Position numbers and translations under genes: made by a program. From assembly GCA_001724265.1 (NCBI GenBank), contig MEDY01000443.1:1-44337 (forward strand): a DNA stretch of 44,337 nt, in the 5' to 3' direction. Under the pieces are notes generated by a model, which ran no database searches, had not been told where the DNA came from, and worked only from the letters and a program-made list of their open reading frames with translations. Below are positions 1 through 44,337 of the stretch, in pieces (the stretch's first letter is position 1; every line of letters starts with the position of its first letter). This DNA is from Rhizaria sp. SCN 62-66. Lineage: Eukaryota.

Positions 1-550
1 GAGACCACGGATACCGTGGGTCTTGGGCTTACCGTAGACGATACCCTTGGAGTTGGGGCGCTTGGAGGAGCCGCGGCGAACACGGACACGGTAGATGACG
101 AAGCCCTGCTTGGCCTTGTAGCCCATGCGGTGGGCCTTGTCGGGGCGGGAAGGCTTGGAAGCGCGGTGCACAGTGGCAAGCTGGCGGAACTCCCAAGTGC
201 GGATGCGCATGACGAAGCGCATCACATCGGACTGCTTCTTGCGCCAGAGCTCAGTAAGATACTTGTAGGCACCTGCGGGAGGATTACAAAAGGGGAGGCA
301 AGAGACAAGAGGCGGATAGAAAGAAGAGAAATGAGCTAAAGTTTCTTGGCAAAAGATTCACAGATCCTCGTGACAGCATCTATAGTCCCTGGAGAGGCTT
401 TTCTAGGGTAGCTTGGGAAGAAAGAGCTCTTGGGCCAGCGCTCAGAGCTCCTCGGAAATGGTCATTTTCGGCGGGAAAATCCGTCAAATGCGAATGTGGA
501 CCTTATTAACAATGAGAGCAGCGCAAAATTGATTGTAGAAACGTACCCAT
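1..550 (-). CDS. RPL15: 60S ribosomal protein L15 (eL15), 5' part; exons 550-547 and 272-<1
   Basis: Spliced translation [69 protein letters not shown]...GIVYGKP is the eL15 N-terminus. Phase-1 intron 546-273 (GTACGT...CAG). Not in the ORF track; the gene runs off the left edge of the window. Confidence 0.97.
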
Positions 551-8900: not shown

Positions 8901-10790
8901 AGAGTGACCGCGAGCAGGTGATCGAGGTCGACGTCACCGCGACTGGCCAGCTCACCACCCGCCGCTCCGACAGCAACAGCAAGAGTGACTCTACTGCCAC
9001 TGCGAAGCTGCGCGTGTCGAAGCGCGTGGCCGCCGCAATCTCCCCGGCCACGCTCCCGCCCGTCCGCGCGCGCTTCGCGCTGAGCAAGCTGATCATCGAG
9101 GGCCAGGCCACCGAAGCGGGCCCCCGCCGCGCGCCCGCGGCAGGCGTGCAGCTCGCCGCACAGGCCCCCGCCGTGGCCGTGACCGCCGCCGCGCTTTCGC
9201 TGGCCCCTGTGTCTGCGGACTCGCTCGCAGGCGTGTCGCCCGCGGCCGCGGTGGTGGCCGTGGCGCGCCCGGCCGTCGCGGCCACGATCGCCATGGAGAA
9301 CCTGGGCTACTTCCAGCTGCAGGCGCGCCCCGGCGTGTTCGAGGTCACCGTCGCGTCCAACGGCCACGACAAGGTCTTTGCTGTCGAGCCCACCGTGAAT
9401 GCCAACGGTGGCACTGGCGCCGAGTCGGTGCTGTCGCTTTCTGTGCCTGTGCCCTCTGCCTCCGCTTCCGCTGAGTCCAAGTCCGCCGACTCCACTGCCG
9501 GCGCCGGCGCCAGCGCCTCCAAGACTGCGAGCGTGGGCGTGGTGGGCTCCCACTCGGCGCGCGCGTCTGCGCAGTCGGTGGCGGTGACGTCGTTCGTGTC
9601 CGAGCCTCAGCAGCTGCGGCTGCGGCGCCAGCCGGGCCAGGGTTTTACCCGCATCGAGGACGTGGAGCTCGACTGGAGCGACGCCAGCGCCAACGGGGTC
9701 GCCGCGGTGCCGTCGAGCGCGGCGCTGTACGCGTCGTGGGCATCGCCGCTGATGCAGCGCACAGTTAACAACGGCACCATCCACGTTTTCTCGATCGCGT
9801 CCGGACACCTTTATGAGCGCTTCCTGCGCATCATGATGCTGTCGGTCTTCAAGAACACCAAGAGCAAGGTCAAGTTCTGGTTCATCGAGAACTTCTTGTC
9901 TCCGCAGTTCAAGGAGTTCGCGCCCAAGATGGCCGCCGAGTACGGCTACGAGGTCGCCTTCGTGACGTACAAGTGGCCCGCCTGGCTGCGCGGTCAGGAG
10001 CAGAAGCAGCGCCTTATCTGGGGCTACAAGATTCTCTTCCTCGACGTCATTTTCCCGCTCGATCTCGACAAGGTTGTCTTCGTCGACGCTGACCAGGTCG
10101 TGCGTGGTGACTTGCAGGTACGTTTACTATTACTAGGAGTATCTTTTGTTCAATTTTAAACTGACTTAATATTAATTGATTCAATTATTGTCTTTACAAT
10201 ACTCAGTTTTTAAATCTCACGTAAATAATGTTACTTTGCTTTATATTCCCTTGTTTTTGCTCTGTTCATAGGAGTTGTTCGACATGAAGCTGCGTCCCGG
10301 CGCGCCCTACGCGTACACGCCGTTCTGCAACAACAACATGGAGACGGAGGGCTTCCGCTTCTGGAAGCAGGGTTACTGGCTTAACCACCTCCAGGGCAAG
10401 CCCTACCACATCTCGGCGCTGTATTTGATCGACCTGCGCCGCTTCCGCCGCCTGCGCGCGGGCGACATCCTGCGGTCTGTCTACGACCAGCTGTCCGGGG
10501 ACAAGCACTCGCTGGCCAACCTGGATCAGGACCTGCCGAACTTTGCGCAGCACAACGTGCCGATCCACTCGCTGCCGCAGGAGTGGCTCTGGTGCGAGAC
10601 GTGGTGCGGCGAGGCGACGCTCCCGGCCGCCAAGACGATCGACCTGTGCAATAACCCGGCCACCAAGGCGCCCAAGCTCGACGTGGCCCGCCGCCTCATC
10701 CCCGAGTGGCAGGTGCTCGACTCCGAGGCCGACGCGCTCGCGGAGCGCATTGAGCGCGAGCAGCGCGCCGCCGCGGGGCAGGGCGTCTGA
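2927..10790 (+). CDS. UGGT: UDP-glucose:glycoprotein glucosyltransferase (GT24); exons 2927-4489, 4644-5087, 5254-5920, 6039-10117, 10272-10790 (~2423 aa)
   Basis: N-terminal signal peptide; motifs [20 protein letters not shown] and [14 protein letters not shown]; catalytic domain [20 protein letters not shown]...[14 protein letters not shown]...FVDADQ...YHISALY...[10 protein letters not shown]...WLWCETWC...IDLCNNP. All four GT-AG introns keep the frame. The start could instead be ATG 2936. Confidence 0.95.
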
Positions 10791-16167: not shown

Positions 16168-18079
16168 ATGCTCGGCCGTACCACGTTTGCCAAGGGCCTC
16201 CGTGCCCTTGCGGGCAAGACCACCGCCTTTACCCCCAAGTGCGCCTCTCTTTCCGCCACTGCCGCCGCAGTTACCCGCGCCCCTCTCCGCGCGCACGCTG
16301 TCGTGGCCACCGGCCCCCCGCGCGCCACCCCCGCCGCCGCTGCCGCCGCGTCGGCCTCGTTCGCTGCCTTCACCTCGAGCGCCACGTCATCCTCCGCCAC
16401 CGCCACCGCCGCTGCCGCTGCCCCCGCTGCTGCCGTCGCGTCCTCGACCATCGGCGGGTTCTCGTCCCCGCGCCTGCCCCGCGGCAACAAGACGTCGGTG
16501 ATGTTCACCCTGCGCGACGAGCCCGGCGCTCTGCAGGAGTCGCTCAACATCTTCGCCAAGCACAACATCAACCTCTCGCGCCTCGAGACCAAACCGTGCC
16601 TGCACTCGACCGACTACGAGTTCCACGTCGACTTCGACGGGCTGCCCTCGCACCCCAACGTGCAGGCGCTTCTGGCCGACCTGCGCGCGCAGGCGCACCA
16701 GGTGAACATCCTCGAGTCGAAGAAGGTCGCCTGGTTCCCGCGTCACAAGCGCGACCTCGACGTCATCGCCAACGACATCCTCGCCGCCGGCTCTGACCTC
16801 GACTCCGACCACCCGGGCTTCTCCGACCCGCAGTACCGCGCGCGCCGCGCCGAGCAGACCCAGCTCGCGCTCGACTACCGCTACGGCAACTCCATCCCCA
16901 AGTACGTCCACTTACAATGCAAGCTCAAGTTGAAACAAAAGATATATTCATTCACTGGTGTAAAGGCTAATTTATGAAAAGAGATACGAGTCATATATGT
17001 TTATATCTTGACATTGAGTTTGATTCATTACTCACTCATCTTTGTGTCGTCAACGTTTGTTTTGTTTTTTGTCTTGTTTGTTATCGCAAGGATCAACTAC
17101 ACGGCCGCCGAGGTGGCGTGCTGGGGCGAGGTGTACACGAAGCTGCGCGCGCTGCACGAGGAGCACGCCTGCGCCGAGCACATGCGCCTGCTGCCGCTGT
17201 TTGAGGCCAACTGCGGCTACCGTGCTGACAACATCCCGCAACTGCAGGACATCAGCGACTTCCTGTCTGAGTGCACGGGCTTCACCATCCGCCCCGTTGC
17301 CGGGCTGCTGTCGACGCGCAACTTCCTCTACGGACTCGCGTTCCGCACCTTTTTCTCCACGCAGTACCTGCGCCACCACAGCAAGCCGCTCTACACGCCT
17401 GAGCCCGACCTCGTGCACGAGATCATGGGCCACGTGCCCCTCTTCGCGGACCAGGTACGTGTCGATACATCTCTACAATGTAATGTTTTATGTGAGACGA
17501 CATTGACAGTGATCTAGGTATCTCTATTATCTATCTTAATAAGGACGTTTTTTTCTCACAATGCTTCTTGTATGGTGTTATATGCGCGCATTATATTCAC
17601 AGGACTTCGCTGACTTCTCGCAGGAGATCGGCCTGGCGGCGATCGGCGCGACGGACGAGCAGATCGAGGAGCTGGGCCGCTGCTACTGGTTCTCGGTCGA
17701 GTTCGGCCTCTGCAAGCAGGGCGACGCGCTCAAGGCCTACGGCGCTGGTCTGCTGTCGTCGTTCGGCGAGCTCAAGTACTCGCTGGGCATGGACCCCGAG
17801 GCCAAGCCCGAGCTGCGCAAGTTCGACCCCTTTGCGACGGCGAAGCAGACGTACCCGATCACGACGTACCAACCCATCTACTACGTCGCCGAGTCGTTCC
17901 AGGACATGAAGACGCAGATGAAGCATTTTTCGCGCTCGCTCTCGCGTCCCTTCAACGTGCGCTACAACCCCTATACGGCCACGCTCGACATCGACGCCAA
18001 CGTCAAGTGCGAGGATCACGTTGCCACTGGCAAGCTCGACGTCTACGGACAGGACAAGGGCTACGCCAATACCGTCTAA
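16168..18079 (+). CDS. PAH: Aromatic amino acid hydroxylase (phenylalanine-4-hydroxylase type) with ACT domain and N-terminal extension; exons 16168-16901, 17091-17454, 17603-18079 (~524 aa)
   Basis: ACT domain (GALQESLNIFAKHNINLSRLETKP); WFPR; LDSDHPGFSDPQYRARR; STQYLRHHSKPLYTPEPDLVHEIMGHVP with the iron-ligand His pair; YWFSVEFGL; KAYGAGLLSSFGEL. Two frame-preserving GTACGT introns. Confidence 0.93.
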
Positions 18080-20644: not shown

Positions 20645-21339
20645 TGGCTTGGCTGCTGGGCAGGAGGAAGAGAGCAACGAAGGAAAGAAGGGTGTGTTAG
20701 TGGAAGCAACAGGAGAAGTTAGAAAGAGTTATGCGGGAAATAACTAAAATTTATAAATACAATCGCTTATATAGTTTCCAAATTTCCGTGTTGAATAAGA
20801 AATTAACGATGACAGCGCTCACCCGACACCAATTCCGTCACGGTCCGATTCATCGGGCAAAAGAAGGCCGCGACGAGCTGCTCGCTCTGCGTTCGCAAAA
20901 AAACCACTTGGCCTCTGCTTCGACTTAACGAAGGATTTTTGTCAGAATGCCATAGGCGATTGGATTCAATTATACCGTGCGGGGGCACATAATGTCACAG
21001 TTATTTGTTTTGCAACGATTTCTCGTCAGAGCTCACTACTAATAGTAGTCGAAATACTCACGGCGGTGGGGTTTATCGCGCTGTTTTAGAGCATGTTTTT
21101 CGTCAACAGGCGAAGTTGCCTTGGCGGCGCCTTTGCTATGCCCGCGCTTCAAAATCTGGATTTCAGTCTTTACCTGCATGGTTTGTAACCACATACTGTT
21201 TTCGCTCAACGGCATTTATCTTATCTACTATGTACCGTGTCTTCATCGCTTGTGTCGTTCGTTTTACTCTTGTATAGGTTCACTCAAGGGGTTGTTCAAA
21301 TCCTGCGCCTCATCCTTCCCGCAACCTTGACGGAGCTTT

Positions 21340-22455
21340 ATGCCTCGTGTTAAGGCGCCCGTTAACCCAGCCACTCTTTCTGCCACAGTCGGCGTAGTAA
21401 ACCCAGTCTGTAAGCCTTCCGCGCCACTTTGCGCGAAGGTTTCCGCCCACCCCGCCGTCCCTACAGGCCCTTCGGCCGTGCCGCGCGAGCTTCAGTCTGT
21501 CGCGCGTCGTCCGCCGTCCCAGGCGAGCCAAACTTCTCCCGCGTCCGCTTCCGACGCCGGTTCCATCGATCCCGTCTTGCATTTAACCTCGTCACCGCCT
21601 GAAAGCACCGCCACTTCGTCAGACTCGGCCGCGACCCCGCTCGATACTTCGGCTCTCTCCCTGATGGCCTCGACCACCATCTCGCTGCCCGCCGCGCCCG
21701 CGCCCGCGTCCACGCGCGATGCGCCTACCGTCGGCTCTCCGGGCGCCTGCAACCGCACTACCACGCCCTCCAGCGTTACCGGCGCCGCGCAGCCGCAGCC
21801 GCAGCAACACCAGCAGCATCAGCACTCCGCCTCCGGCTCCAGCCCTTCCAACGCGACGGCCACCGCTGGCGCGGGCGCTGGTGGATCGCACCTGCAGCGC
21901 GGGCGCCGCGCGCGCAACCCCGCGCCGCCGAAGGAGCACATGCTGACCTGGCCGCGTCTGCCCGGCAACACCAACAGTAGCAATAATAGCACCAGCAACG
22001 GCGCCTCCACGTCCAAGGCGACTAACGGCGGCGCCGGCAATGGCGATGACGACGACGACGACGGCACCGCATCGACCGCGCACGACGCCGCCGCGCTGGC
22101 CGCCGCCGAGGCCGCGGCCGCCGCCGTTGCCGCGGCCGCCGCGGAGACGATCGCAGCCAACGCCGCGGCCACGAACGCGGGCGTGAGCTCCACTGGCACG
22201 CGTCAGGGCCAGTCGAGCTCGATCTCGACCAGCCGCAACACGAACCCCTTCCGCGGCGCCGGCAACAAGACCGGCAGCAACAACAACAATGGCAACAATA
22301 GTCACAGCCACCACAACGGCCACGCTAACGGCCTCGCCAACGGCAACGGCAACAGCAACGGCCACAGCAACGGCAACGGCAGCCACCCGCACGGCCGCTC
22401 GCTCTGCGGCGGCGCGGCGGGCAACACCACGCCCGGCGTGCCACCACGACCGTGA
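21340..22455 (+). CDS. Low-complexity S/T/A/N/G/H-rich ORF (371 aa), probably the 5' part of the downstream exonuclease-like gene
   Basis: Codon usage resembles the other genes (GCC/GGC/AAC rich); no recognisable domain. Its TGA overlaps the ATG of the next ORF. Confidence 0.6.
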   Translation: MPRVKAPVNPATLSATVGVVNPVCKPSAPLCAKVSAHPAVPTGPSAVPRELQSVARRPPSQASQTSPASASDAGSIDPVLHLTSSPPESTATSSDSAATPLDTSALSLMASTTISLPAAPAPASTRDAPTVGSPGACNRTTTPSSVTGAAQPQPQQHQQHQHSASGSSPSNATATAGAGAGGSHLQRGRRARNPAPPKEHMLTWPRLPGNTNSSNNSTSNGASTSKATNGGAGNGDDDDDDGTASTAHDAAALAAAEAAAAAVAAAAAETIAANAAATNAGVSSTGTRQGQSSSISTSRNTNPFRGAGNKTGSNNNNGNNSHSHHNGHANGLANGNGNSNGHSNGNGSHPHGRSLCGGAAGNTTPGVPPRP

Positions 22456-23588
22456 TGGGCGGGGCCGGGGGTGCCACATCCACCACCCCCACGCCCGCCG
22501 CAGCCGCCGCCGCCGCTGCCGCCGCCACGGCCGCCGCAGCCGCTGCCGCCGCCGCCGCCGCCACCGCGGCGGCGGTCGCTCTGTCGGCCGGCTCCGTCCC
22601 TATCTCCGTCCCTGGCGGCGCCAGTGCATTGACCGGCGCTGGCACTATGACTGGCGCAGGGCTCGCCGGGAGCGGCGGGATGTCGACGCCGCCGCTAGTG
22701 CTCACGCCCATCTCGGGGCTCACCTTCCCTCAGCTGCGCCAGCTCGCCGAGCAGGCGCGCCGCCAGCAGCAACAGCAGCAGGGCCAGCAGGGCCAGGGGC
22801 AGGAGGCGACTGCGGCCGCCGCGGCTGCCGCGACGCTGTCCGCGCTGTCGGCGGCGTCGTCCCCCGCGCCCGCGTTCGGCCCCGCCAACAACGCGTACGC
22901 ACACCAGTTCAACGGTACCGGCAACGGCACCGGCAGCGCAGCTGCGAGCGTGAGCGGCAGCGTAAGCGGCAGCGTGTGCGGAGCCGCGGCGACGCGTCTG
23001 CCGCCGCACCTGGTGGCGGCGGGCCTCCCGACGCCACTGCCGGGCTCGCTCTACATTGGCCCGCAGCAGCAGCAGCAGCAGTATCAGCAGCAGCTGCAGC
23101 AGCAGGCGGGGCTCTTCGGCGTCCTGGGCAAGACGCCGTCGCCCGCGCCCCAAGTCGCCACCCACGCCGGCAACGGCGCATACGCCACCTCAAACGCGGC
23201 CGCGGCTGCGGCGGGCGCGGTGCCCAGTGCCAACGGCTTCCGCGTGGGGCCCCTGGACCACCACTCCGTCACCGCGGGCTCCCCCGCGCCGTCGACGTCC
23301 AACACCTACGGCAACGGCCACGGCCAAGGCAGCTACAGCGGCGCCGGCGCCGGAGCTGCGAGCACCGTGAGCGCGAGCGCCGAGAAGCCCACCGGTCTGC
23401 GCAAGGGCCGCCGCGGCCAGCAACAGCAGCATCATCAGCAGCCACAGTTCCAGGACGGCAGCCTGGCGCAGCAGCAGCCGCAGCAGCTGCTGCAGCAGCA
23501 GCAGCAGCAGGCGCCGCGGCATGCCGCGCAGCCGAGCCGCGCGGCGACGATGACTGCGGCGATGGGCGCGATGCTGCGCTCGCACCAC

Positions 23589-23625
<37 letters not shown>

Positions 23626-26000
23626 GCGGGGCGGCGGCGGGGCAAAACAACGCGTCGTTCTCCAACGGCTCCCCCGGCACTGCGCACTCGCACATGCACG
23701 CGCACGGCGGCCATGGCGGCCACGGCGCACAAGTGCAGATGCAGATGCACATGCCGCCGTCGCCGCCGCTGCCGCTGCTGGCCCACCCGCACCTGCAGGC
23801 GCACCAGTCCTACACGGCGGCCGTGCCGGTCACCGGTGGCGCCTTCACCATGTCCCCGACGCAGCCGCGGCGGCCCGCGGCGCACCACGGGTCCGCCACT
23901 AGCACGCCCGTGCCCGTCGCCGTTTCCGTCGCCGCGGGCGGCACGGCCACGACCGGCGCCACGCCGCAGGGCTCCCCGGTCGCGCCCACGCTGCTGCACA
24001 CGCACTCGGGCGCGTTCCACGGCAACGGCGGCAACGGCAGCGGCGGCCACCTCGGTGTGGCCGCGCTGTCGATGCCCGACAGCGCCGCGCTGCCCCCGCG
24101 CTGCAACACCAGCACAGGCTTTCACTACGCCAGCGCCAACGCCGGCCACGGCCACGGCCACGGCACCGGACGCGCAAGCGCGAGCGCGACGCCCGTCCCC
24201 GGCGTGCCGACTCTGGCAGGCGTGGACGTGGCGCAGCTGCTCTCGCTTGTGGGGCTGCGCACCGTTACCGTGCCCACGCCCACGGCCACGCCCGGCGCGG
24301 TCTCCGGCGCCGTGCCGCTGCCCGTGCCCCTCCCCGGCTCCGTGTCCGCCGGCGGGGCCGCGCTGTCCAGCGTCGGCGCCCGTGGCGCGACGCCGTCGCT
24401 GACCGCGATGGACGTGCTGCGCCAGCACACACCCTCGGCGGCCTCGCACGCGTCCTTTGCCGGCTCCCACTCGCAGCTCACACAATACCAGCCGCAGCCG
24501 CTGCTGCAGGGGCCCGGCGCGTCGCCGCAGCAGCTCGCGCAGGCGCAGGCGCAGGCGCAGCAGCAGCAGTCGCGGCACACGGCCGCGCTGGCCGCCGCCG
24601 AGGCCGCCGCCGCCGCGGCCGCCGCGCTGACGCCGCAGAGCATGGTGCGCGCGTCCTCGGTCGACACGGGTCTGCAAATGCACATGCCACCCGGCGTTCC
24701 CGCCACCGCCGCCGCCGCCGCCGCGCCCGCGCTCTCGTCCGCTGCCACAGCTGTTCCCGCGTCCGCGACCGCGACTGCGGCTGACCCTGCTGCGCTGGCG
24801 TCGTGGCGGCCGCTGACGGACCTGTCGCTGCCGCCGCTGGAGCGGTGCTTCGCGCTGTCGGTGGCGTGGGTGGCGTCGGGGCCGAGCCACCTGGACCGCG
24901 TTATCGGCCAGGTCGCGCTCGTTGACTGCTCCGGCAACGTGCTGCTCGAGTGCAACGTGCTGCCATCCGTGTCCGTCGTCTCCGCGCTCACCCCGCTGAC
25001 CGGCATCGTGGCCTCGGAGCTCACGGCGGCCGAGGGCGCGCTGCCGCTCGACGCCGTACGCGAGGCCGTGCGCGACGTGCTGGCCGCCTTCGCGCCGCCG
25101 CTGACGGTGGACCCGGCCGCGCTGGGCGAGGCCGAGGGCGGCAGCATGTGGTCCCGCGCCGCGTCCAACCAGCCGCTCTGGTCGCGCACCTCCTCGGCCG
25201 TGCTCATCGGCCGCCAGGTCGACCGCGCCGTCGCTGCGCTGGGGCTTCGCGCGCCCGTCCCGCCGCCCGGCTCCGCGGGCGCCGCCGCGGCCGCCGCGGG
25301 CGCGCTGGCTGCCGTTGCGGGCCCCGGCGGAGACTTCTCCGCCTGGCTCGACACGTCGGCGGCCTGGGCGCTGCCCGACGCGCGCTACGGCCGCACGCTC
25401 TACTCGCTGCACCACGAGGCGCGTGCGCTGCTGGGCGCCGACATCGCGCCCGCCGCGCTCGTCGCCTCGGGCATGCTGCCGGGCAAGGGCGCGCTGGCCG
25501 CCTACGCGCCGCCCGAGCCGGCGGCCGCGCAGGGCGACGCGCGCACACACGCCGCGCACATGTCGGCCGCGATGATGGCGCTCTACACGCAGCGCCGCGA
25601 CGCCGACGCAGCCGGGCGCGCCGCAGTGGCCGCGGAGCCCGACGGCGCGGCCGCCGCGTCGCTCGCCGCCGCTGCGGGCGCGGGTGCGGCCGTGTTTGCC
25701 GCAACCGCGGCCGCCGGTGCCGCGGCCGCCGCGCAGGCCACGGGCTCGCTCTCCGCGAGCGACGCCGCCGCAGCCTCGGTGCCAGCAACGACGGGCACTG
25801 CGGGCACTGCGGGCGCGTCGGGCGCGGCGGCGGGGCAGCACCCGCTGAGCGCGGTGTCGGTGCCGTCGTGGCTGTGGGCGTTCCACGACAAGCTGCGCAC
25901 GACGAGCAAGACGGCCACGCCAGCGGCCCTGCACCCTGTCATTGACGGCGTGTGCTCCGGTAACAGGCAGACGTGCATCTGCGGCGCGCCCTACTACTAA
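22455..26000 (+). CDS. Q/A/G/H-rich protein with a C-terminal degenerate DEDDh (REX4-like) 3'-5' exonuclease domain
   Basis: From ~24846: CFALSVAWVASG...IGQVALVDCSGNVLLECNVLPSVSVVSALTPLTGI...VLIG...YSLHHEARALLG, ending in DGVCSGNRQTCICGAPYY. This is the RNase T/REX-like layout but without the acidic catalytic residues. Stop is TAA. Confidence 0.75.
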
Positions 26001-27632: not shown

Positions 27633-29339
27633 TCACTTCCCCCCTTGCTGCTGTTGCTGCTGCAGGTTCTGCGCCTGTTGCCGCATCATCGCCTCTTGCA
27701 CCGTGCGCACCATGTCTTCCATGCACATCACCGCGCCCGCCTCCTGCCTCAGGTCTTCGTCACCCTCGTCGTCGCCACCATCGTCACGGCCGTCGCTCAT
27801 CGCCCCGGGGCTGAGCGCGGACTGCGCCTGCACGCCTCCGCGGGGCTGTGGCTGCGCAGCACCGGCGCCGGACTTGCCAGCAGCCGTGCCGGCCGCAGCG
27901 CTGCTGTTGGCGGCCTTGCGCGCGGCGGCCGCGGCGGCTCCGGGACCCACGCGGCGGCGGACGCCGAACCCATCGTTGAAGCTGCCACTGACGCCGCCGC
28001 TGAGGCCACTATTGAGACCGCCGTTGAGAGTAAGACCGGAGCCGAGGCCAGTGCCCGGGCCAGAGCCAAGGCCTGAGCCGAGGCCTGAACCGAGACCAGA
28101 ACCGAGACCAGAGCCGAGACCAATAGCGAAGCCAGCGCGAGGACTACCTCCGAGACCGGCACCGAGTGTGCTGTTGCCGGCGGTCGTAGTGGTAGCGCTG
28201 CCGCTGCTGTCGGCCTGCTCGAGACTGGCGCGGGCGCGCTTGAGGTAGTCCTGGAAGGTCTCGACGGGCGCGTCGGCGCTGATCTGCGCCTGCGCGAGCG
28301 CGCGCGTGGCCGCGTCTGACGCGGGGTCGAAGAAGGCTGCGAACGACTCGAGCGCGGCAGTTTCCTCCTCGTCGTCCTCCTCCAGCAGAGGGTCGACAAT
28401 CTCGTCCTCTTCGTCGTCTTCATCATTGCGCTCAGCGTCGTCGTATTCTTGCTTCGCAGTCACGGCGTCACCGGCATTGACGCCTTCCGTGTTGTTGTGC
28501 GGGTTGACGGGTACAAGACCGTGGGCAACTGCGCGCGCGTTAGCCTTGGCCAGAGCAAGCGCAGCCGCAATGCTGCCAGGAACAGCATCGGCTAATTCCT
28601 GTTCTTCGTCGTCATCGTCATCGTTGTGATGACCCTTACTGTCGTTGACCAGAGAGAGCTGCTGCATCTTCATGGCAAGCAGCGCGTCTTCGTCAAGATC
28701 CCGCAGCGCGCGCAGGGCCTCGTCGTCCTCCTCCTGCTCGCGCTCGGCCTCGGCGGGGATCGCGGCGGCGGGGTAGCGCGTCCACCGCTTGGCGGCGAGC
28801 CAGATCTCGGCGCGCGTCGCCGCGGCCCACGAGGGCGCAAAGCCGAGCCCGACCCACGTGCCCTCGCCTATGCCCTCGGTCGACGCAGTGCCGGAGGCGC
28901 CCGCGGGATCGCTGGCGCCGGCGTCGGGGGCTGGCGCGGAGGAGTTAGGGAGGTCCGCGAGGGGCCGGAGCACGGTGCGCGGGCGCCAGACCAGACCGCG
29001 GCGGTGCTCGATCACGGCGGCGCGGCCGGCGGAGGACAGGGAGGCCGGCAGCGGGGGCAGCGCGGCCACGCGCGCGGCCTCAGCGGCGGCGCCGGCGGGG
29101 GAGAGGCGCGCGGTAAGGTAGAGCAAACGCAGGTCAGCGTGCGTGCAGTTCAGCGCGGCGGCGACGGAGGCCGCAAGCGAGCGAACGGGAGACGTTGAAG
29201 GGACGGTAAAGCGCAGGGCAGCATCTCTGTCAAGGGAAATCGAAGGAATGTCATTGGTGGAGCCGAACAGGTCGACCACGTAGATAGAGAGCTCGTCAGC
29301 GCCGGCGGATGCCGTGACCGCAGGCGGCTCTGAAGACAT
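27633..29339 (-). CDS. Hypothetical protein (~568 aa) with a possible N-terminal ubiquitin-like fold, acidic middle and GLGS repeats
   Basis: Long GC-rich ORF with gene-like codon bias, bounded by AT-rich DNA. ATG 29339 follows an AG acceptor. The segment LSIYVVDLFG...[31 protein letters not shown] resembles a beta-grasp pattern (tentative). Confidence 0.7.
   Translation of the reverse strand: MSSEPPAVTASAGADELSIYVVDLFGSTNDIPSISLDRDAALRFTVPSTSPVRSLAASVAAALNCTHADLRLLYLTARLSPAGAAAEAARVAALPPLPASLSSAGRAAVIEHRRGLVWRPRTVLRPLADLPNSSAPAPDAGASDPAGASGTASTEGIGEGTWVGLGFAPSWAAATRAEIWLAAKRWTRYPAAAIPAEAEREQEEDDEALRALRDLDEDALLAMKMQQLSLVNDSKGHHNDDDDDEEQELADAVPGSIAAALALAKANARAVAHGLVPVNPHNNTEGVNAGDAVTAKQEYDDAERNDEDDEEDEIVDPLLEEDDEEETAALESFAAFFDPASDAATRALAQAQISADAPVETFQDYLKRARASLEQADSSGSATTTTAGNSTLGAGLGGSPRAGFAIGLGSGLGSGLGSGLGSGLGSGPGTGLGSGLTLNGGLNSGLSGGVSGSFNDGFGVRRRVGPGAAAAAARKAANSSAAAGTAAGKSGAGAAQPQPRGGVQAQSALSPGAMSDGRDDGGDDEGDEDLRQEAGAVMCMEDMVRTVQEAMMRQQAQNLQQQQQQGGK
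28035..28125 (-). repeat. Degenerate 12-bp tandem repeat encoding (GLGS)n
   Basis: Translation GLGSGLGSGLGSGLGSGLGSGPGTGLGSG, with synonymous variation between units. Confidence 0.85.
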
Positions 29340-29723
29340 TTGGTTCTGACCAGGACGATAGAGGCAAAAATACGTTTTCAAGCGGTGAGTAATCGATGAA
29401 ATATATTTCAGTATCAATCACACACCGTACTGCAACTAAACCAAAATTGACGATGACTTGAGCGAGATATATGTGTTGGCAGATCGCGGCAGTCGTCAAC
29501 TCGCGAAGACGGAGCTGTCGACCACAAATCGGTTTTGCGACGCTGCTCCATCAACCACTTCAAGTCGCTTTCAAACCACGTCGATCTCTCATTGCAGGAC
29601 TGCTGTAATCACATATCACCGGTTGTAAATCACTTTTGATAGACTTAAAACACTCTTAGTCAAGCTGCACTTCAGCTTATACCCAAAGTTTTATCTTCAT
29701 TTTTGTTTTGAATGTTTAGCACG

Positions 29724-31232
29724 ATGCAATTCACTGCAACATCGCCAGTGACAACGGCTGCTGATACCAAGTCTCGGCATGTGCTTTCAATTGCACAGTT
29801 CCACCCACTGCGTATGGAGCTGCTCTTCCGCACTGCGTTTTTTGTGCGCTAGCTTTCAATTCTTCGGATTCCGCTCGAGGTCGCCAAAGGTATGTGATAT
29901 TCAAGTTGTCCTTCCAATCACTTGCTCTCAAACCACATCAGCAAGCTCATTCACATGTTCTCCCTCGTTTGACATCGTTTTATAGGCCGCCTGATGACCC
30001 TTCTGTTCTTGGAGCCTTCGACTCGTACCTCCAGCTCTTTCGCAGCCGCGATGCAGCGTCTGGGCGGCGCTGTGAATCACTTCACGCCAGCAACATCGTC
30101 CACCGTCAAGGGCGAGTCGCTCGAAGACACTGTGCGCTGCCTGCAGAGCTACTCCGACGTCCTCGTCGTGCGCCACCCCGAGGCGGGCGCCGCTGCGCGC
30201 GTTGCGGCCACAGTAGACCTCGCGAACACGGAGAGCTCGCAGATGCTGCAGCCCCTAGACATGCTTCACCGCGTGGACTCAGACAAGCAGGGCGACTGTG
30301 CCTCGAGCCAGCGCGCGCTGCCGCACGGCCAGTGCGTGGTGATGAATGCTGGCGACGGCGCGGGCGAGCACCCGACGCAGGCGCTGGTGGACGTCTTCAC
30401 AATGCTGTGCGAGATTACCGACCGGAAGCAACCGCGACTGCTGCCGCTGTGGCGCTTCGAGAGGCTGTCGGGGTTCACCGTCACGCTGCTGGGCGACATG
30501 AAGTTTGGCCGCACCACGCACTCGCTTGCGCAGGCGCTGGGCACTGTTGCAGGCGCAAACAGCAAGGACGGCGACAAGGAGCCTGCACTTACTGTCGTGT
30601 ACGTTGCCCCTTCAGAGCTCGCGATGCCCACCGACATCATCACCGCCGCCGCTGCTGCGGCGACAGCGGGCGCTGATGCCAAGGCAAATACCAAGACCAA
30701 GACGAATGCAAAGTGCGACGCTGTTGCAGCGTCCTCCCCTAACGGCGTCACCGTAAGCGGCTTGTGCCAGCGCATTGCCGACATCTCTGCGCTGACGAGC
30801 GCGCCCAAGAAGGGCGTGCCCTGCCTGTTGGCGCAGACCGACGTGCTCTACGTCACCCGCGTGCAAAAGGAGCGCTTTCCCTCTGAGGATGCTTGGCAGC
30901 AATACCAGCAGTCTGTCTCCACCACAGCCGCAAGCAGCAGCGCGAGCGCCGTTGCTGCAAGCCAGGCTGCTGCGTCCAGCTCCAGCGGGTACTGCATCAC
31001 CCCGGAGCTGCTGAAGCAGGGCGAGGCGAAGCCGACGCTGCGCGTGCTGCACCCGCTGCCCCGCGTGGACGAGGTGCCGCCCGCACTCGAGGCCACGGAA
31101 CCGCTGCGCGCGGCGTACATGCGCCAAATGCGCTGGGGGCTGTATCTGCGCATGGCGCTCATCGCGGAGGCGCTGGGGGCAACGGACGAGATCGAAGCGC
31201 TCTACGCTCGCGCGATGGGGCAGGCTGAGTAA
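29724..31232 (+). CDS. pyrB: Aspartate carbamoyltransferase (ATCase), stand-alone; exons 29724-29889 and 29986-31232 (~470 codons) with an in-frame TAG at 29850-29852
   Basis: Exon 1 reads MQFTATSPVTTAADTKSRHVLSIAQFHPLRMELLFRTAFFVR*LSILRIPLEVAK, joined by a phase-1 intron (GTATGT...TAG, 29890-29985) to GRLMTLLFLEPSTRTSSSF. Further motifs KGESLEDT, VVRHP, NAGDGAGEHPTQAL, GDMKFGRTTHSL, DVLYVTRVQKERF, HPLPR. An alternative in-frame ATG lies at 29712. Confidence 0.92.
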
Positions 31233-31402
31233 ACCTTAGCACAAATTTCTCTGCTTGATCATTTTGGGGAGAAATTCATATGGCATGGCAGTTTGATAGA
31301 TGGTTGGGTTTTTGATTGGAAATAAATATACACAGTTGTATTTGAATCCATCGATGTTTCTAAGTAGCAAACTATCTATGTCAACATTCCTCATCTTCCG
31401 TT

Positions 31403-34400
31403 TTAAGCGGTCGCGCCCTTTTTGCGCACCATTTGTTCCAGTTCCGCGACGAGCGAGCGGGGGAACATTTCCCAGCGGCCCCAGCACGTGACCACGCCGG
31501 CCACACGCTCGCGTGCGCGTTCGACCGCAATCGAGCCGGCCAGCGCGCGCGCCGCAGCCATGGCGCCGGCAACAGCGTCGGTTGCGACAGCCTGCACTGC
31601 GGTGCGGTACAGTGCGGCGCCGGGCACGGGCGCGCGGAGCGAGTTGTACAGAATGTCGGACAGCAACAGCAGACGCGCCAAGCGCCGCGGGAAATAGTAG
31701 TCGTACTGGGGTTGGAAGTCAGGCAGCGTTGCTCCAGAGTCGACATCATCACCATACTCGTCATCTTCCTCGTCAGCACTGTAGCCGCTGTCGCTGTCGT
31801 CATCGTCTTCGTCGTTGTCGCCGTCATTGCCGCGACGGCCACGATCACGATCGCGGCCGCGGTCGCGGTCACGTGAGTCGCGGTCATCTGCGTACCGGCT
31901 GCGCTTAATCACGAAGCCACCCTCGCGCTCATCGTCACGGTTATCGTCGCCGTCGCCAGTGCCGCAATAATCGCTGCGCTTGCGGTCCTTGCGCGGCCGG
32001 TTCGACACGTCTCCCGGCCCTGGCGGCGCGCAGACCGCGTCAACGATGACATTGACAATGCCGACGGCGTGGCGGGCGTTGTGAAGAGCGAAGAGCATCG
32101 CGTTCGCAATGCTGCCGCGCTGCAAAGTCAAGCCGCGCAGGAGCCCCGCGAGAGAGGACAGAATGCCGGCGGGCACGGGCCGCGGCGCGCGCGGGCCCGG
32201 CGCCTGTAGCGCAGAAGCTGAAGCGGCATTCACAACAGATGGAACGAGAGAAGGCGAAGTAGCCGTGGCCATGGTGGCGGACTCGAGGGACTGTTCGGGC
32301 ATCTGCGTGACAGGCACAGCGTAGCAGGGCTTGTTTGCATTGCGCGCATTGCCTGCGACGCCAAACCCAGTCCAGAGCGCAACAGGAGCAGCGCCCAACA
32401 CAAAGCGGCCGGTGACGCCAGCGCTCATCGTCGTGGCGTTCGTGGTCGCCGTGAGCACAGTCGCGGCGGTCGCGGCGGACGAGGGCGCCGCGAGCAGCGG
32501 CTGACCGAGGACCTGGCAGCCGGCGGGCAGACCGAGCTGTGCCAGCGCGGCGGCCGACACGCGCTCGCAGTCGCGACCGTGCTCGCTGTCGCTGCCACTG
32601 CGCTTCTCGGCGTCGCTGCTCGCGAGACTCGAGTCGGCAAAAGCGGACGCGAGCGCGGCGGCGGCGACTGGCGGCGCTAGCAGAACAGCGGCCTCATTTG
32701 CCGGCACAGGCGACTGCGAACCCTCAGGCAGCGAGGCGAGATGCGTGGTGAGGCTGCGCATGTACGCGTTATACACCTCGTCCATGCCATCATCGGCGCT
32801 TGCACTCACATCATCACTATCAGAAGAGCCGTGATTGCGCGCACTGGGCACACAGAAGCTGAGCTGCTTCAGCACGCCGCGCTGCTTCTCTCGCGCAGCA
32901 CTCACATCCTTGCCGCTCTCATCATCATTATCAACAGTGGTGGGAGCGAGTGCGGCGGTCACGCGCGCAGTGAGCAGCTTCTCGAATCCGGCCCCGCGGG
33001 CCGCAACGTAGCGCGCCACGATCGCCGCAGCCTGCGCTTGCTTATCCTTGTCAATGCTCGCGCCTGAGTTGTGAGAGTTCGTGACTGTGAGCGAGCAGTC
33101 AACAGGCACGCAGTAGACGGGCGTGAGCGAGCGCGCCTGCGCCTGCGACCGAGCCTGGCCCATCCCAACGGCGAGCTCTGCGACGGCGGCCACTGCGGCG
33201 GCCGCGTTCGCTGCAGCGGCAGCAGCGGCAGCAGCGTCGTCATCGTCGTCCTCAACACCGAGGTTCGCGTCATTCGCTTTACTCGCGGCGCCACCGCCAC
33301 CCCCGCCCGGAAAGTCCATCCAGCTGACGGCGGCGCCCGCGCCCGCGCTGGCGCCCGCGTTGCGCTGGCGCGCCCAAAGCACGGCCTCTCGCGTGGCGAG
33401 CGGCGGCGCGGCGGGGTCGACGGCCACCGCACGCGCCCACCGCACCGAGACTTGCCTGTCGCGCACATAGCGCAAATTCTCGGCCTGCAGCGCCGCCGCG
33501 GCGTCGGTGCGAGCGACGAACGCGACGAAGCCCGTCAGCCGCGCGCGCGCGCGGTCTTCGTCCGTGCGCGGGTGCATGAGCTTGACGGCAGCGATGTCGC
33601 CGTAGGCCGCGAAGCGCTCGATGAGCTGCGACTCGCTCGCGTCGGGCGGTAGGTTCGTCACGACCAGATTCGTGCTCGACGCCAGCGACGGGTCGTTCGG
33701 CGCGCCCGGGAAGCTGACGGGGCCGCCGCCGGCGCCGCTGCCGGCGCCGCTGTTCGCGGGGGAGGCGGAGGGCATAAGGGCACCGGAAAGCATGAATGCG
33801 TCAATGGCCTTGATCTTGCCCTTCGTCGACGAGCTTGCACCGGTAGTACCAAGACTCGAGCTGCTAGAACCAGAGCTGTTCGCGGCAGCAAATGCAGCGG
33901 CGGCAGTCACGCCCTGCGCCTTGCCGCCACTCGGCGCACTGTTGCCGTCCTCTTCGCTGTCGTCGTCTGCGGCGGCAAACGCGGCCGCGGCAGAGATCTT
34001 GCCCCTGCCCGTGGCCACCATCGTCGCCGCCCCCTTGCTTCCGACGCCGCTGCCGCTGCTGAGCGCAAGCGGGGCGGCGACGGCGGCCAGCGCAGCCGCG
34101 GCAGCCGGGTGCGCACCGGGCTTGCCGCGCGCCGCCGCCGTGGCCGCCGCCGCGCGCCGGGCCACGACGAGCGCGCGCAGGCGCAGTGCCTCGGCGTCGG
34201 CGTCGGCCTCGTCGTCGCCGCCGCCGGCGCCCGCAACCGTGAGACCGGGGCCCGCGCCGAGCGACAGCGGTACCGACGCCAGCGCGGCGGCGGCGGCGGC
34301 GGTCGCGGCCGCGGAGGGCACGGCGGGCGATGGCGCCGCCGCAGCGGCTGCGGCAGCGGCATTCGCAGAGCGCGGGGGCAGTGGGAGCGAGGAAAACGAG

Positions 34401-35935
34401 GCGGGCAGCCCGAGCGACGCGGCGTCGCCGTGAATGAGCCCGTCGTCACCGTGACTGCGCTTGTCGCCGTTGTCGTCGTCCTTGTTCACCACGCCCGCGG
34501 ACACGAACGCCACCGCCGCCCCCGGCGCGCCCCTCTTCTTACCCCCATGACCGCGACCGTGGTCCTGCCCGTGCTCCTGCCCGTGACCGGGGCCGTGGCT
34601 GCCAGAGGTTTCCGTCGCGGGCTGCACGACGTACTGTTCGACAAAGCTGGCCAGCAGTCCGCCGACCGCGGCGCGCTCGTCCTCAAGCTTCTCGGCGCGC
34701 TCCAGCAGCGCCTGCTCGCGCACGGCGGCGCGGCGGCGGGCGGCTTCGGCGGCGCGCGCGGCAGTTGCGTTGAGCGCGGCCGCCGACGCCGCGGCGTGCA
34801 GAGCGTACTCACTACCGCCGTCGTTGCTACCGCGGTCGGCGCGGGCCGCGGCGCCGTCGCCGTGGTGCGCCGCGAGCACCTCCTGCTGCGCCGCAAAGGA
34901 CTTGAGCAGGTATTGCACGAGAGCATCGCGCTGCGTCGCGCCCATCACCTCGCCCTCATTCGCAGTGTCTGTCGCGGCGTCTTTAGCGCCATCACCACCA
35001 GTAGCCGCAGGAACAAAGGCAGCGGGCTTGCCGACAAGGCCGACGGCGAACACAGCGGCGACGGCGGCGGCGACGTCATCGGCCGTGGCCACGGGGGCCT
35101 GCGGCTGCGCCAGCGCCATCTGCCGCTGCAGCAGCGCCAGCCGCCGCGCCTCCAGCTCCGCCTGCTGCGCAGGCAACTGCGCCTGCGCTTGCGGCTGCGC
35201 GAGGGCAAGCGCGTGCGTCTCCGCCTGCAGCTGCGTGTACTCGTCGGTGTAGCGCGCACAAGCAGCTTCCCAGCGCCGGCGCAGCGCAGCGTCGAGCGCG
35301 GCGGTGATCGCGGCCATGTGCGCGCTGCTCACGGTCACCTGGTGCTCGCGGTCACTCTCGCTCTCGCTTTCGTGCTCGCTGCCGCTGCCACGGTCACGGC
35401 TACCACCGCGACTGCGAGAGCGAGAGTGACTACGGCTACGGCTATGGCTGCGGCTGCGGCGGCCGCGTTGGTTGCGACGGGCCTTGCGGCGGCGACGCTT
35501 GCTATTAAGATTGCTGTACTCTTGGCTCTTGTCGTCGTTGCCGTTGCCACGGTCCTTGTCGCGGCGAGGACTGGGACTACGGCTATAGTCACGCCGGCGA
35601 GGCCTGTCCTCGTCGCCGCCCCTATAACCGCCACGCGGAGATTGCGAGCGTGAGCGAGAACGTGAGTATGAACGACGGCGCTCGCGAGAGTCAGGAGGAG
35701 AGCGGTCGCGGTTGCGGTCAGTGTCATATCTACGATCGCAGTCGCGATCGCGCTCCCGCGATCGCATGCGTTGAGAGTCACCAGAAGCGCGGCTGCAGGG
35801 AGACGCGTCACGCCATTCGGTGCGAGGCGCGTGGCGGGCCTCGTGCGAGCGCTGGGGAGAATGCCCGTGCTACAGGGGCCGCTGCTGTTGCGGCGGTCGT
35901 CCCTGCGACGGGTGGGGCGAGGTGGGGTTGGACAT
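31403..35935 (-). CDS. U2SURP: U2 snRNP-associated SURP protein (SR140/U2SURP-like): RS region, RRM, SURP/SWAP-like segment, CID; in-frame TAG at 35870-35872 if translation starts at 35935
   Basis: RRM STNLVVTNLPP...YGDIAAVKLMHPRTDEDRARARLTGFVAF; SURP-like IVARYVAARGAGFEKLL; CID LLRGLTLQRGSIANAMLFAL...RLARLLLLSDILYNS...RVAGVVTCWGRWEMFP. The ORF track starts at ATG 35767, but the frame continues through one TAG to ATG 35935, where GC-rich sequence begins. The 5' end is the less certain part. Confidence 0.82.
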
Positions 35936-43346: not shown

Positions 43347-44337
43347 GCGCGCCCTCGTACGGGACTAATCTGCAAATATTATTCTGTACACATGTGCGTG
43401 CGTGTGTTCTCCAAGCGGAACGCTCACACGCCCGCACTTGCTGCCACGCGGATACAGCTCGCATGCGCACGCTCTGACTGCGTGCGCCACGGCCTGCCTC
43501 GCGCGGGACTGACTCGACCGACCGACTGGCGGCGACCGGCGGCGACGCCTACGGGCACGGTCGCTATCTGAGGGGGGATTGATAGGAGGTATTTGTTTAT
43601 GGATCTGTCCAGCTACACATCTTTGTGGCACGCACACACTATGAAGCTTAAACTACCCGGATGCACGCTTTGTTAACTCGTCGCACAGTAGATGAACAAC
43701 GTCTCTCTGCGGCGTATCGTAAGACTTGTGCACAGGTGTAACTCGTTTACATCTTGTGTCTGCGTTTGATCGTCAACATGTTTGTTGACTTTCTTTCAAT
43801 TGCTTAGGTGTGCGTGCGTGTGCGCGGGTGTGAAGAAGAGGGACGAGCCATATGTAGTAACTGCTACGCCACGACCACTGACCGTGGGGGCATGAGTGAA
43901 TATGAGGACATCGGGTAATATTTAGTTGTTGTTTCATGGATAAGTGGGGATAGAATCAATGCATTAGGATGTAATAAAACTGTTTAAGACGTTGATTGAT
44001 AACAATAACCGTGCGACTCGTGATATTTTGAGAACCCCAACGGAAGGGACGGGGCAGGTAACTACAATGTGAGATTGCTAACCATTTGCGCACAAACACG
44101 ACGGCGATTTTGTGTGATAATAGTGTTTATGGATTGAATATGATGTATAATGGAGATATCGAAAATTATTATGACAACGAGGTTAAATGTAGTGAGCATT
44201 CAGTTTGTTAGAACGAAGTGGTGGCAGTGGACAGCTTGTTGTGGACTAACTGACCTTCTTTAAATGTGCATTTACACAATTCTACGACTTGCTCTTCATG
44301 CAGAAACCTCGGACTTGCCCACAGGGGTTAAGTTTGT

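What the first reader, a model, noticed from the sequence alone, without database searches (positions are those of the whole stretch)
29850..29852. In-frame UAG inside the conserved N-terminus of ATCase: candidate stop-to-sense reassignment of UAG only
Seen: from ATG 29724 the frame reads ...RHVLSIAQFHPLRMELLFRTAFFVR-TAG-LSILRIPLEVAK and splices through a canonical intron into GRLMTLLFLEPSTRT. Known: the CAD/Ura2 ATCase domain begins HxLSxxQF...LF..A..xR.......LD.LKG..M...FxExSTRT. By eye the peptide fits this without gaps on both sides of the TAG, and starting at ATG 29994 would remove the first strand and helix of the fold. The catalytic motifs downstream are intact, so the gene does not look decayed. 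Inference: UAG is decoded as an amino acid. Decoupling of UAG from UAA is rare in nuclear codes (reported cases include UAG=Leu in a rhizarian, UAG=Gln in Iotanema and a few ciliates). The aligned column is variable, so the residue cannot be read from this site.
Basis: partly seen in the sequence, partly recalled or inferred. Interest (0 to 1): 0.92.

Follow-up and report, generated by a model that had tools for sequence, protein, structure and literature searches.

The report
In-frame UAG in a protist ATCase gene
An uncultured wastewater protist carries a real UAG stop codon inside the conserved start of an essential pyrimidine-synthesis gene, and the little other DNA available from it suggests that it reads UAG as a rare amino-acid codon while still stopping at UAA and UGA.

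Summary
TAG 29850-29852 is in frame with ATG 29724 in exon 1 of a stand-alone aspartate carbamoyltransferase gene (intron 29890-29985, stop TAA 31230-31232). Adding exon 1, with X at the TAG, raises the family-profile score from 286.9 to 307.3 bits, and the alignment runs ungapped across the TAG. None of 200 shuffles reached that score. Assemblies from other studies carry the identical stretch, so a sequencing error is unlikely.

No genome is held, so code inference rests on about 11,000 codons:
- None of 13 complete genes in the window ends in TAG (7 TAA, 6 TGA).
- A second in-frame TAG lies in a Sel1-repeat gene on a small contig (L002), linked to the window by a shared dispersed repeat. The repeat motif and a 51%-identical homologue both continue past it.
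- A third, weaker candidate lies in the 5' part of an RRM/RS protein gene.

My best reading, at about 0.6, is that UAG is a rare sense codon and UAA and UGA are the stops. The amino acid, the tRNA, eRF1, mRNA evidence and the taxon are all unresolved. UAG as a sense codon is far sparser here than in published UAG-only codes.

The parts
29724..29889 (+). ATCase exon 1: start codon, an 18-residue leader, then the conserved first strand and helix of the carbamoyl-phosphate domain. It holds the in-frame TAG.
   Evidence: Adds 20.4 bits to the family profile score with an ungapped alignment. 0 of 200 shuffles reach that score.
29850..29852 (+). In-frame TAG, codon 43 of the ATCase reading frame.
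   Evidence: Identical in X2 and X4 contigs. The aligned column is variable.
29890..29985 (+). Intron, 96 nt, GTATGT...TTATAG, AT-rich (GC 0.41).
   Evidence: The junction restores K-G-R-L-M in register with homologues. Read through, it hits TGA at once.
29986..31232 (+). ATCase exon 2 with the catalytic motifs. The terminator is TAA at 31230-31232.
   Evidence: (OTCace_N 1e-30, OTCace 8.5e-11). A polyA-RNA library contig covers 30221-30492.
29812..29817 (+). GTATGG, a possible alternative 5' splice site. Joined to the same acceptor it would remove 174 nt in frame, including the TAG and 26 residues of helix 1.
   Evidence: Read. The resulting product scores 287.5 bits, no better than exon 2 alone. 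9 of the 10 introns I read begin GTACG. Use of this site was not tested.
35870..35872 (-). Candidate in-frame TAG in the 5' part of the 1488-codon RRM/RS-rich protein gene, 21 codons after ATG 35935-35933.
   Evidence: GC rises from 0.48 to 0.73 exactly at that ATG, and the frame stays open into the long ORF. No homology support. Under the standard code it could be a short upstream ORF.
44060..44337 (.). Dispersed repeat at the window's right end. It links contig L002, which holds the second in-frame TAG, to this organism.
   Evidence: Depth is 97-200 against about 6 elsewhere in X2 and X4. Copies 94-96% identical lie on L002-L005.

Best explanation
The window is nuclear DNA of an uncultured eukaryote (protist) found in bioreactor and wastewater metagenomes. 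In this organism UAG is most likely not a terminator. The ribosome reads it as an amino acid, while UAA and UGA end translation.

Shown: the TAG is real, fixed and in frame; the flanking peptide is homologous on both sides; every terminator seen is TAA or TGA; a second gene has a TAG within a conserved repeat.

Inferred: a decoding agent exists (a tRNA with anticodon CUA, or efficient near-cognate reading together with an eRF1 that ignores UAG); the sparse use of UAG reflects an early or weakly used reassignment; the amino acid remains unknown.
For: (1) The ATCase TAG is flanked by homologous sequence. Scores are 307.3 against 286.9 bits, the alignment is ungapped, and 0 of 200 shuffles reach the score. 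Without exon 1 the Pfam domain starts at position 39-43 of 148.

(2) The same sequence stands in contigs of X2 (different study and year, with SNPs elsewhere) and of X4. Runs of 2015-2025 from three studies hold 98-100% of its words.

(3) Terminators: 13 of 13 complete window genes end in TAA (7) or TGA (6). The EF-hand gene on L003 ends in TAA. TAG makes up 22% of stop triplets in the window's non-coding DNA, which gives P(0 of 13) of about 0.04.

(4) Second case: on L002 the Sel1-repeat frame reads ...GWGIRRDQNAAK-TAG-WFRRAELAYA-TAA. Pfam's best Sel1 stretch is residues 196-225, spanning the TAG at residue 220. The only close homologue, P0247 (51% identity), runs on through that column, keeps the W after it, and continues for 30 more residues.

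(5) Third candidate: the TAG 21 codons after the first ATG of the RRM/RS gene.

(6) The three TAGs share no following context (CTT, TGG, CAC), so a common readthrough signal is not apparent.
Against: Sense UAG would be extremely rare. There are 2-3 sites in roughly 11,000 codons, summed from ORF lengths. The four longest frames (1402, 1251, 1223 and 1488 codons) contain none. Published UAG-only codes use it often (PMC5304391 passages; PMC11687900 abstract).

Exon 1 has weak coding composition: GC3 is about 0.5, and -0.45 bits per codon against +0.43 for the start of exon 2. The 5' ends of some other genes are also weak: Vps36 first 55 codons -0.40 bits per codon and lower GC3 at several 5' ends. 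UGGT, PAH and g14 start at +0.57 to +1.08.

Fourteen terminators are a small sample.

L002's assignment to the same organism rests on a shared repeat of about 95% identity and on similar composition. Its TAG could be a recent 10-codon truncation.

No tRNA gene lies in the window. No eRF1, no genome and no RNA contig across the TAG or the splice junction were available. A second ATCase or CAD copy elsewhere cannot be excluded.
Confidence: 0.6

Rival explanations
1. The organism uses the standard code and this ATCase copy is a recently inactivated gene, or yields only a truncated product from Met 29994. The L002 TAG is an ordinary stop or a recent short truncation, and the absence of TAG terminators is sampling noise.
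For: There is only one homology-backed TAG in the window. Exon 1 has the weakest coding composition of the gene, and many of its otherwise conserved columns are substituted. P(0 of 13 TAG stops) is only about 0.04-0.25, depending on the assumed TAG share. The window was flagged because of this TAG, so that site alone carries little weight.
Against: The rest of the gene is intact, with all catalytic motifs and no other stop or frameshift. A polyA-library contig covers part of exon 2. The TAG is fixed in samples of 2015-2025. This reading needs a second coincidence: a TAG inside a Sel1 repeat whose motif and homologue continue past it. Among the gene ends I could read, none shows TAG as a clear terminator.
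Confidence: 0.17
2. The code is standard overall, but UAG terminates poorly in this organism or in these messages. The ATCase is made by readthrough using near-cognate tRNAs, without a dedicated tRNA(CUA) and without a true reassignment.
For: Very low use of UAG both as a sense codon and as a stop fits a codon that is avoided in both roles. The base after the ATCase and RRM-gene TAGs is C, which I recall as a leaky context in eukaryotes.
Against: An essential enzyme that depended on inefficient readthrough at codon 43 would be costly. The three sites share no downstream motif. I recall no example of obligatory readthrough this early in a housekeeping enzyme.
Confidence: 0.13
3. The TAG is removed from the mRNA by use of the upstream GTATGG at 29812 with the same acceptor. 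This is an in-frame 174-nt intron, and the protein would lack 26 residues of helix 1.
For: GTATG matches the GTAYG 5' splice-site pattern of this genome. The skipped length is a multiple of three, so the frame is kept.
Against: The skipped segment aligns to the family (E71, F74, A77, R81, K94, G95). The shortened product scores 287.5 bits, which loses all the gain from exon 1. It would delete a core helix. 9 of the 10 introns I read start GTACG.
Confidence: 0.05
4. Assembly or sequencing error at 29850-29852.
For: None was found.
Against: Identical contigs come from X2 and X4, with no alternative letter reported at the site. X2 differs from the window at other places, so it is not the same assembly.
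Confidence: 0.02

Closest known systems
Rhizarian exLh (Sainouroidea), nuclear code with UAG = Leu and UAA/UGA as stops (PMC5304391; passages read)
   Same: UAG is read as sense while UAA and UGA terminate. It is a non-ciliate protist found only through sequence data. No TAG terminators were seen there (56 UAA, 15 UGA).
   Different: exLh has 384 in-frame UAG in 71 genes, mostly at conserved Leu positions. Here there are 2-3 sites in about 11,000 codons, none at a conserved column. The taxon is unknown, and no tRNA or eRF1 data exist.
Iotanema spirale (Fornicata), UAG = Gln (same paper; passages read)
   Same: UAG is decoupled from UAA in a nuclear code.
   Different: UAG is used often in conserved genes there, where hyperconserved columns allowed the residue to be inferred (passages read). 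Here the genes are GC-rich and the residue is undetermined.
Phyllopharyngean ciliates with UAG = Leu or Gln (PMC11687900; abstract and outline read)
   Same: The UAG-only reassignments were found by mining metagenome-derived eukaryotic genomes. UAA is kept as the stop.
   Different: Those are ciliates with widespread sense use of UAG and identified suppressor tRNAs. This organism has roughly 60-500-nt GTACG-type introns and GC3 near 0.9, which I recall as unlike ciliate genomes. No suppressor tRNA was found in the 44 kb available.
Amoebophrya sp. ex Karlodinium veneficum, context-dependent stop codons (PMC12005148; passages read)
   Same: In-frame stop codons occur in essential genes, are argued not to mark pseudogenes, and persist across isolates.
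   Different: All three stops are involved there, with about 13.6 per affected gene. Here only TAG is involved, and it is rare.
Programmed stop-codon readthrough in organisms with the standard code (recalled, no call)
   Same: A single UAG within a functional reading frame is translated.
   Different: Known cases extend C-termini or make minor isoforms and rely on a downstream signal. Here the codon sits at position 43 of an enzyme core, and no shared context is seen.

Membership tests
Nuclear code variant: UAG sense, UAA and UGA stop | In-frame UAG inside conserved coding sequence of several unrelated genes | tested here: met
   ATCase and the Sel1-repeat gene on L002. A third site, in the RRM/RS gene, is a candidate only. 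That makes two solid sites, one of them on a contig linked only by a shared repeat.
Nuclear code variant: UAG sense, UAA and UGA stop | UAG absent from genuine gene ends, UAA and UGA present | tested here: met
   0 TAG, 7 TAA and 6 TGA in 13 window genes. L003 ends in TAA. The sample is small: P is about 0.04 under a 22% TAG share.
Nuclear code variant: UAG sense, UAA and UGA stop | A tRNA gene with anticodon CUA | not testable with these tools
   No tRNA gene of any kind lies in the window, and no genome is held.
Nuclear code variant: UAG sense, UAA and UGA stop | eRF1 N-domain changes that fit loss of UAG recognition | not testable with these tools
   No eRF1 gene lies in the window or the loci, and I had no way to link one to this organism.
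Nuclear code variant: UAG sense, UAA and UGA stop | UAG kept in mature mRNA and translated | tested here: inconclusive
   The polyA-library contig covers only 30221-30492 of the gene. No listed contig or joint covers exon 1 or the 29889/29986 junction, and 146 joints and 3783 pieces were not shown.
Nuclear code variant: UAG sense, UAA and UGA stop | One consistent amino acid at conserved aligned columns | tested here: inconclusive
   The ATCase column reads T33 I18 A17 E14 N7 D5 V4 G4 Q3 S3 L3 H1 M1, of 113. The Sel1 homologue has T. Both columns are variable.
Aspartate carbamoyltransferase catalytic chain (Pfam OTCace_N + OTCace) | Both Pfam domains score above their curated thresholds | tested here: met
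   OTCace_N scores 107.2 bits (cut-off 29.9) and OTCace 42.6 bits (cut-off 29.4).
Aspartate carbamoyltransferase catalytic chain (Pfam OTCace_N + OTCace) | Substrate-binding motifs STRT, HPTQ and HPLPR (motif names recalled) | tested here: met
   They lie at residues 12, 129 and 356 of the exon 2 product.
Aspartate carbamoyltransferase catalytic chain (Pfam OTCace_N + OTCace) | Complete N-terminal strand and helix before STRT | tested here: met
   This is met only if the TAG is read through. Exon 1 aligns ungapped to profile positions 17-60. From Met 29994 the domain starts at position 43 of 148.

The most novel reading that the evidence does not exclude
This is an independent UAG-only reassignment in an unnamed, GC-rich, intron-bearing wastewater protist, caught at an early stage. 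UAG has already vanished from gene ends but is used as a sense codon only about once in 4,000-5,000 codons. It might specify an amino acid not yet linked to UAG: Thr is the commonest residue at the ATCase column and is the residue in the one Sel1 homologue, which is a lead only.
Probability: 0.4. Interest if true: 0.85.

Novelty: new member of a known kind. Interest (0 to 1): 0.72.

Why it matters
Nuclear codes in which UAG and UAA have different meanings are known from only a handful of lineages. Nearly all of those were found after the new codon had already spread through the genome. An organism in which UAG has left the terminators but is barely used as a sense codon would be a natural snapshot of the intermediate stage that the codon-capture and ambiguous-intermediate models argue about. 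The models could then be tested directly through its tRNA set, its eRF1 and ribosome profiling.

There is also a practical side. Standard gene callers truncate such genes. The database version of this ATCase starts at Met 29994 (P0002), so the proteins of this lineage are systematically mis-annotated.

Tried and rejected
- tRNA and Rfam scans of the window: 0 tRNA genes and 0 family matches.
- Read laying (after a busy-machine failure). All four runs were contigs. None of the 15 listed joints (146 more not shown) is a real intron; the listed ones join GC-rich low-complexity stretches. Splicing and RNA retention of the TAG therefore stay untested.
- Exon 1 alone against Pfam: no hit at E up to 10, because the peptide is too short.
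- Close relatives of the ATCase that might show the ancestral codon: none. The next best hit after the window's own protein is 38% identical.
- The dispersed repeat as a handle to more of the genome: 5 short JGI contigs in the metagenome scan, 0 in viral contigs and 0 in genome contigs. L001 has no clear gene. L004 and L005 show no coding-like composition.
- PKA regulatory subunit as a taxon marker. Relatives at 75% and 62% identity exist, but they are unnamed metagenome proteins. The genome-contig scan returned only 41-43% hits in bacterial MAGs.
- P0247 in viral contigs: nothing.
- Taxon from Rpb5 (Atlas: nearest cluster mostly Euglenozoa) and from eL15 against PDB (the top rows score within a few bits of one another; by recall of the entry codes the kinetoplastid and Euglena chains rank lower). 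The two signals conflict, so I assign no taxon.
- High-GC3 TAGs flanked by open frames elsewhere. Except for the RRM/RS site, all lie in the antisense or shifted frames of known genes. On the antisense strand, NNC-TAY codon pairs read as TAG.
- A codon-usage model could not pick the frame in the RS-rich 5' region of the RRM gene.
- Literature. Two full-text searches (terms: UAG, reassignment, nuclear genetic code, Rhizaria; and UAG, stop codon reassignment, eukaryotic, metagenome-assembled genomes, activated sludge) listed no paper on a UAG reassignment in a wastewater or activated-sludge eukaryote. I did not consult supplements.

Full report
**What the window is.** No whole genome is held for it. 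The 44,337 bases alternate between GC-rich coding blocks (GC 0.65-0.85, third-position GC often above 0.9) and AT-rich spacers and introns. Pfam and reading-frame inspection identify the following genes:
- eL15, on the minus strand and running off the left end
- an RRM protein
- UDP-glucose:glycoprotein glucosyltransferase, in five exons
- a 1251-codon ORF with no family
- phenylalanine-hydroxylase-like Biopterin_H with an ACT domain
- Sas10/Utp3
- a low-complexity 1223-codon ORF
- a 594-codon ORF
- the ATCase
- a 1488-codon RRM/RS-rich protein
- Rpb5
- Vps36
- a PKA regulatory subunit
- a two-RRM protein

It is eukaryotic nuclear DNA. Introns are about 60-500 nt, and 9 of the 10 I read begin GTACG. 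The stretch is held by bioreactor, wastewater and activated-sludge runs of 2015-2025 from several studies.

**The observation.** TAG 29850-29852 lies 42 codons after ATG 29724. The 96-nt intron 29890-29985 (GTATGT...TTATAG) joins exon 1 in phase to exon 2, which runs to TAA 31230-31232.

I built a profile from 112 homologues (290-360 aa, out of the 119 listed non-self hits). It scores the spliced product, with X at the TAG, at 307.3 bits, against 286.9 for exon 2 alone. The first aligned block runs ungapped from profile position 17 to 138, straight across the TAG.

Two hundred shuffles of exon 1 gave 290.0 ± 1.9 with a maximum of 300.1. The two other frames gave 289.9 and 289.1. The homology on both sides of the TAG is therefore real.

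Pfam places the start of exon 2 at position 39 of 148 of OTCace_N, and the Met-29994 product at position 43. The product that the database holds (P0002, 412 aa) therefore lacks the N-terminal part of the domain. From established ATCase structures (recalled) I take that part to be the first strand and helix. STRT, HPTQ and HPLPR are intact.

**Is the base real?** A 1086-nt contig of X2 (a different study, 2025) covers 29295-30380 with no difference. X2 differs from the window at 15 other listed places and at two 1-base deletions, so it is not the same assembly. It covers introns and spacers evenly, so it behaves as DNA.

A 4175-nt contig of X4 covers 29577-33751 with no difference. X4 may be a source of the window. 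A sequencing or assembly error is very unlikely.

In the polyA RNA library X6 the only listed contig on this gene is 30221-30492. No listed contig or joint covers exon 1 or the splice junction, and many rows were not shown. Whether the mRNA keeps the TAG is therefore untested.

**Does the organism stop at TAG?** With no genome, I used what was there. All 13 complete genes of the window end in TAA (7) or TGA (6). For Sas10, Rpb5, the UGGT glucosyltransferase domain and Vps36 the Pfam match reaches the end of the family model close to that stop. TAG makes up 22% of stop triplets in the window's non-coding DNA, so 0 of 13 has a probability of about 0.04. That is suggestive, not decisive.

Within the long frames there is no TAG at all: the 1402-, 1251-, 1223- and 1488-codon ORFs are open under the standard code. 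A scan of every sense-strand TAG found only one further in-frame candidate. In the RRM/RS gene, ATG 35935-35933 is followed 21 codons later by TAG 35872-35870, and the frame then runs open into the 1488-codon ORF. GC jumps from 0.48 to 0.73 exactly at that ATG. With no homology and a low-complexity sequence, this stays a candidate. Under the standard code it would be a short upstream ORF.

**A second gene.** The window's last 280 bases have 15-30 times the depth of the rest in X2 and X4, so they are a dispersed repeat. A 26-base piece of the repeat found five short JGI metagenome contigs with copies about 95% identical.

On L002 a GC-rich Sel1-repeat reading frame (GC3 0.78) reads ...GWGIRRDQNAAK-TAG-WFRRAELAYA-TAA. 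Pfam's best Sel1 stretch is residues 196-225, across the TAG at residue 220.

The only close homologue in the 5.8-billion-protein collection is P0247, at 51% identity over 223 residues without a gap. It passes through that column (T), keeps the following W, and continues for 30 more residues. So the coding sequence continues past a TAG in a second, unrelated gene.

There are two caveats. L002 is tied to this organism only by the repeat and by composition. And a recent 10-codon truncation would look the same. The EF-hand gene on L003 ends in TAA.

**Weighing the readings.** The ATCase site alone carries little weight, because the window was chosen for it. The follow-up evidence is independent of that choice: no TAG among 14 clear terminators, and a second TAG inside a conserved motif among the two extra gene ends I could read. 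Both point the same way.

Against a full reassignment stands the rarity of sense UAG, 2-3 sites in roughly 11,000 codons. The rhizarian exLh has 384 in 71 genes (PMC5304391, passages read), the phyllopharyngean ciliates show 'widespread usage' (PMC11687900, abstract), and Amoebophrya has 13.6 stops per affected gene (PMC12005148, passages read).

My odds are:
- 0.60 that UAG is read as a (rare) sense codon genome-wide
- 0.13 that UAG is leaky, without a dedicated tRNA
- 0.17 that the code is standard and this copy is inactivated or truncated
- 0.05 that the in-frame alternative 5' splice site at 29812 removes the TAG; that product loses all the profile gain (287.5 bits)
- 0.02 that it is an error

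**Which amino acid?** Unknown. The ATCase column is T33 I18 A17 E14 N7 D5 V4 G4 Q3 S3 L3 H1 M1, of 113. The Sel1 homologue has T. Both columns are variable, so the shared T is no more than a lead.

**Which organism?** Unresolved. The ATCase stands alone, between genes on the opposite strand. From recall, that argues against animals, fungi and Amoebozoa, where it is fused in CAD.

Relatives of the PKA subunit at 75% and 62% identity exist only as unnamed metagenome proteins. The Rpb5 Atlas neighbours are mostly Euglenozoa. In the eL15 search against PDB the top rows score within a few bits of one another; by recall of the entry codes the kinetoplastid and Euglena chains rank lower. These two signals conflict.

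Two full-text searches, with the terms given under Tried and rejected, listed no paper describing a UAG reassignment in a wastewater eukaryote. I did not consult supplements.

**Verdict.** If it holds, this is a new member of the small class of nuclear codes that separate UAG from UAA, and it is unusual for how sparsely UAG is used.

Noticed in passing
window 44060-44337; L001-L005: A dispersed repeat of at least 280 nt lies at the contig end. Its depth is 15-30 times single-copy depth in two runs, and its copies are about 95% identical. It probably caused the assembly break. Its nature (transposon end, LTR or subtelomeric element) is unknown.
   Followed up: partly
window 546-549 and 272 (minus strand): The eL15 gene has a 4-nt first exon (ATGG) followed by a GTACGT intron. 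The second exon restores MGAYKY. The gene runs off the left end of the window.
   Followed up: partly
window 16902-17091: The first intron of the phenylalanine-hydroxylase-like gene seems to end in AAG rather than YAG, if the conserved IPK|INY junction is kept.
   Followed up: no
window 22329-22455: The low-complexity gene at 21331-26000 changes its open frame within a GC-rich stretch, with no AT-rich intron. The frame ending at TGA 22453 overlaps the 1223-codon frame that starts by 22329. This may be two genes, an unusual intron or a frameshift.
   Followed up: no
window 30180-30330, 30540-30790, 30900-30990: The ATCase carries three Ala/Ser/Thr-rich insertions relative to its homologues, giving about 470 aa against about 310-340. 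The profile match is split into four blocks around them.
   Followed up: no
whole window: There is an extreme composition contrast: third-position GC is up to 0.9-1.0 in exons, against 0.25-0.45 overall GC in introns and spacers. GC3 is weaker in the first 50-100 codons of several genes. TAA is half of all terminators despite the GC bias.
   Followed up: partly
window 10788-10790: The UGGT frame ends ...AAAGQGV-TGA with no KDEL- or HDEL-like ER retention tail. The last exon may be mis-modelled, or retention may work differently.
   Followed up: no
L006-L008: Three contigs filed under bacterial MAGs (a Gammaproteobacteria MAG, a Metamycoplasmataceae MAG and a Burkholderiales MAG) encode eukaryote-type PKA regulatory subunits at 41-43% identity. 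They are probably eukaryotic contigs binned in error.
   Followed up: no
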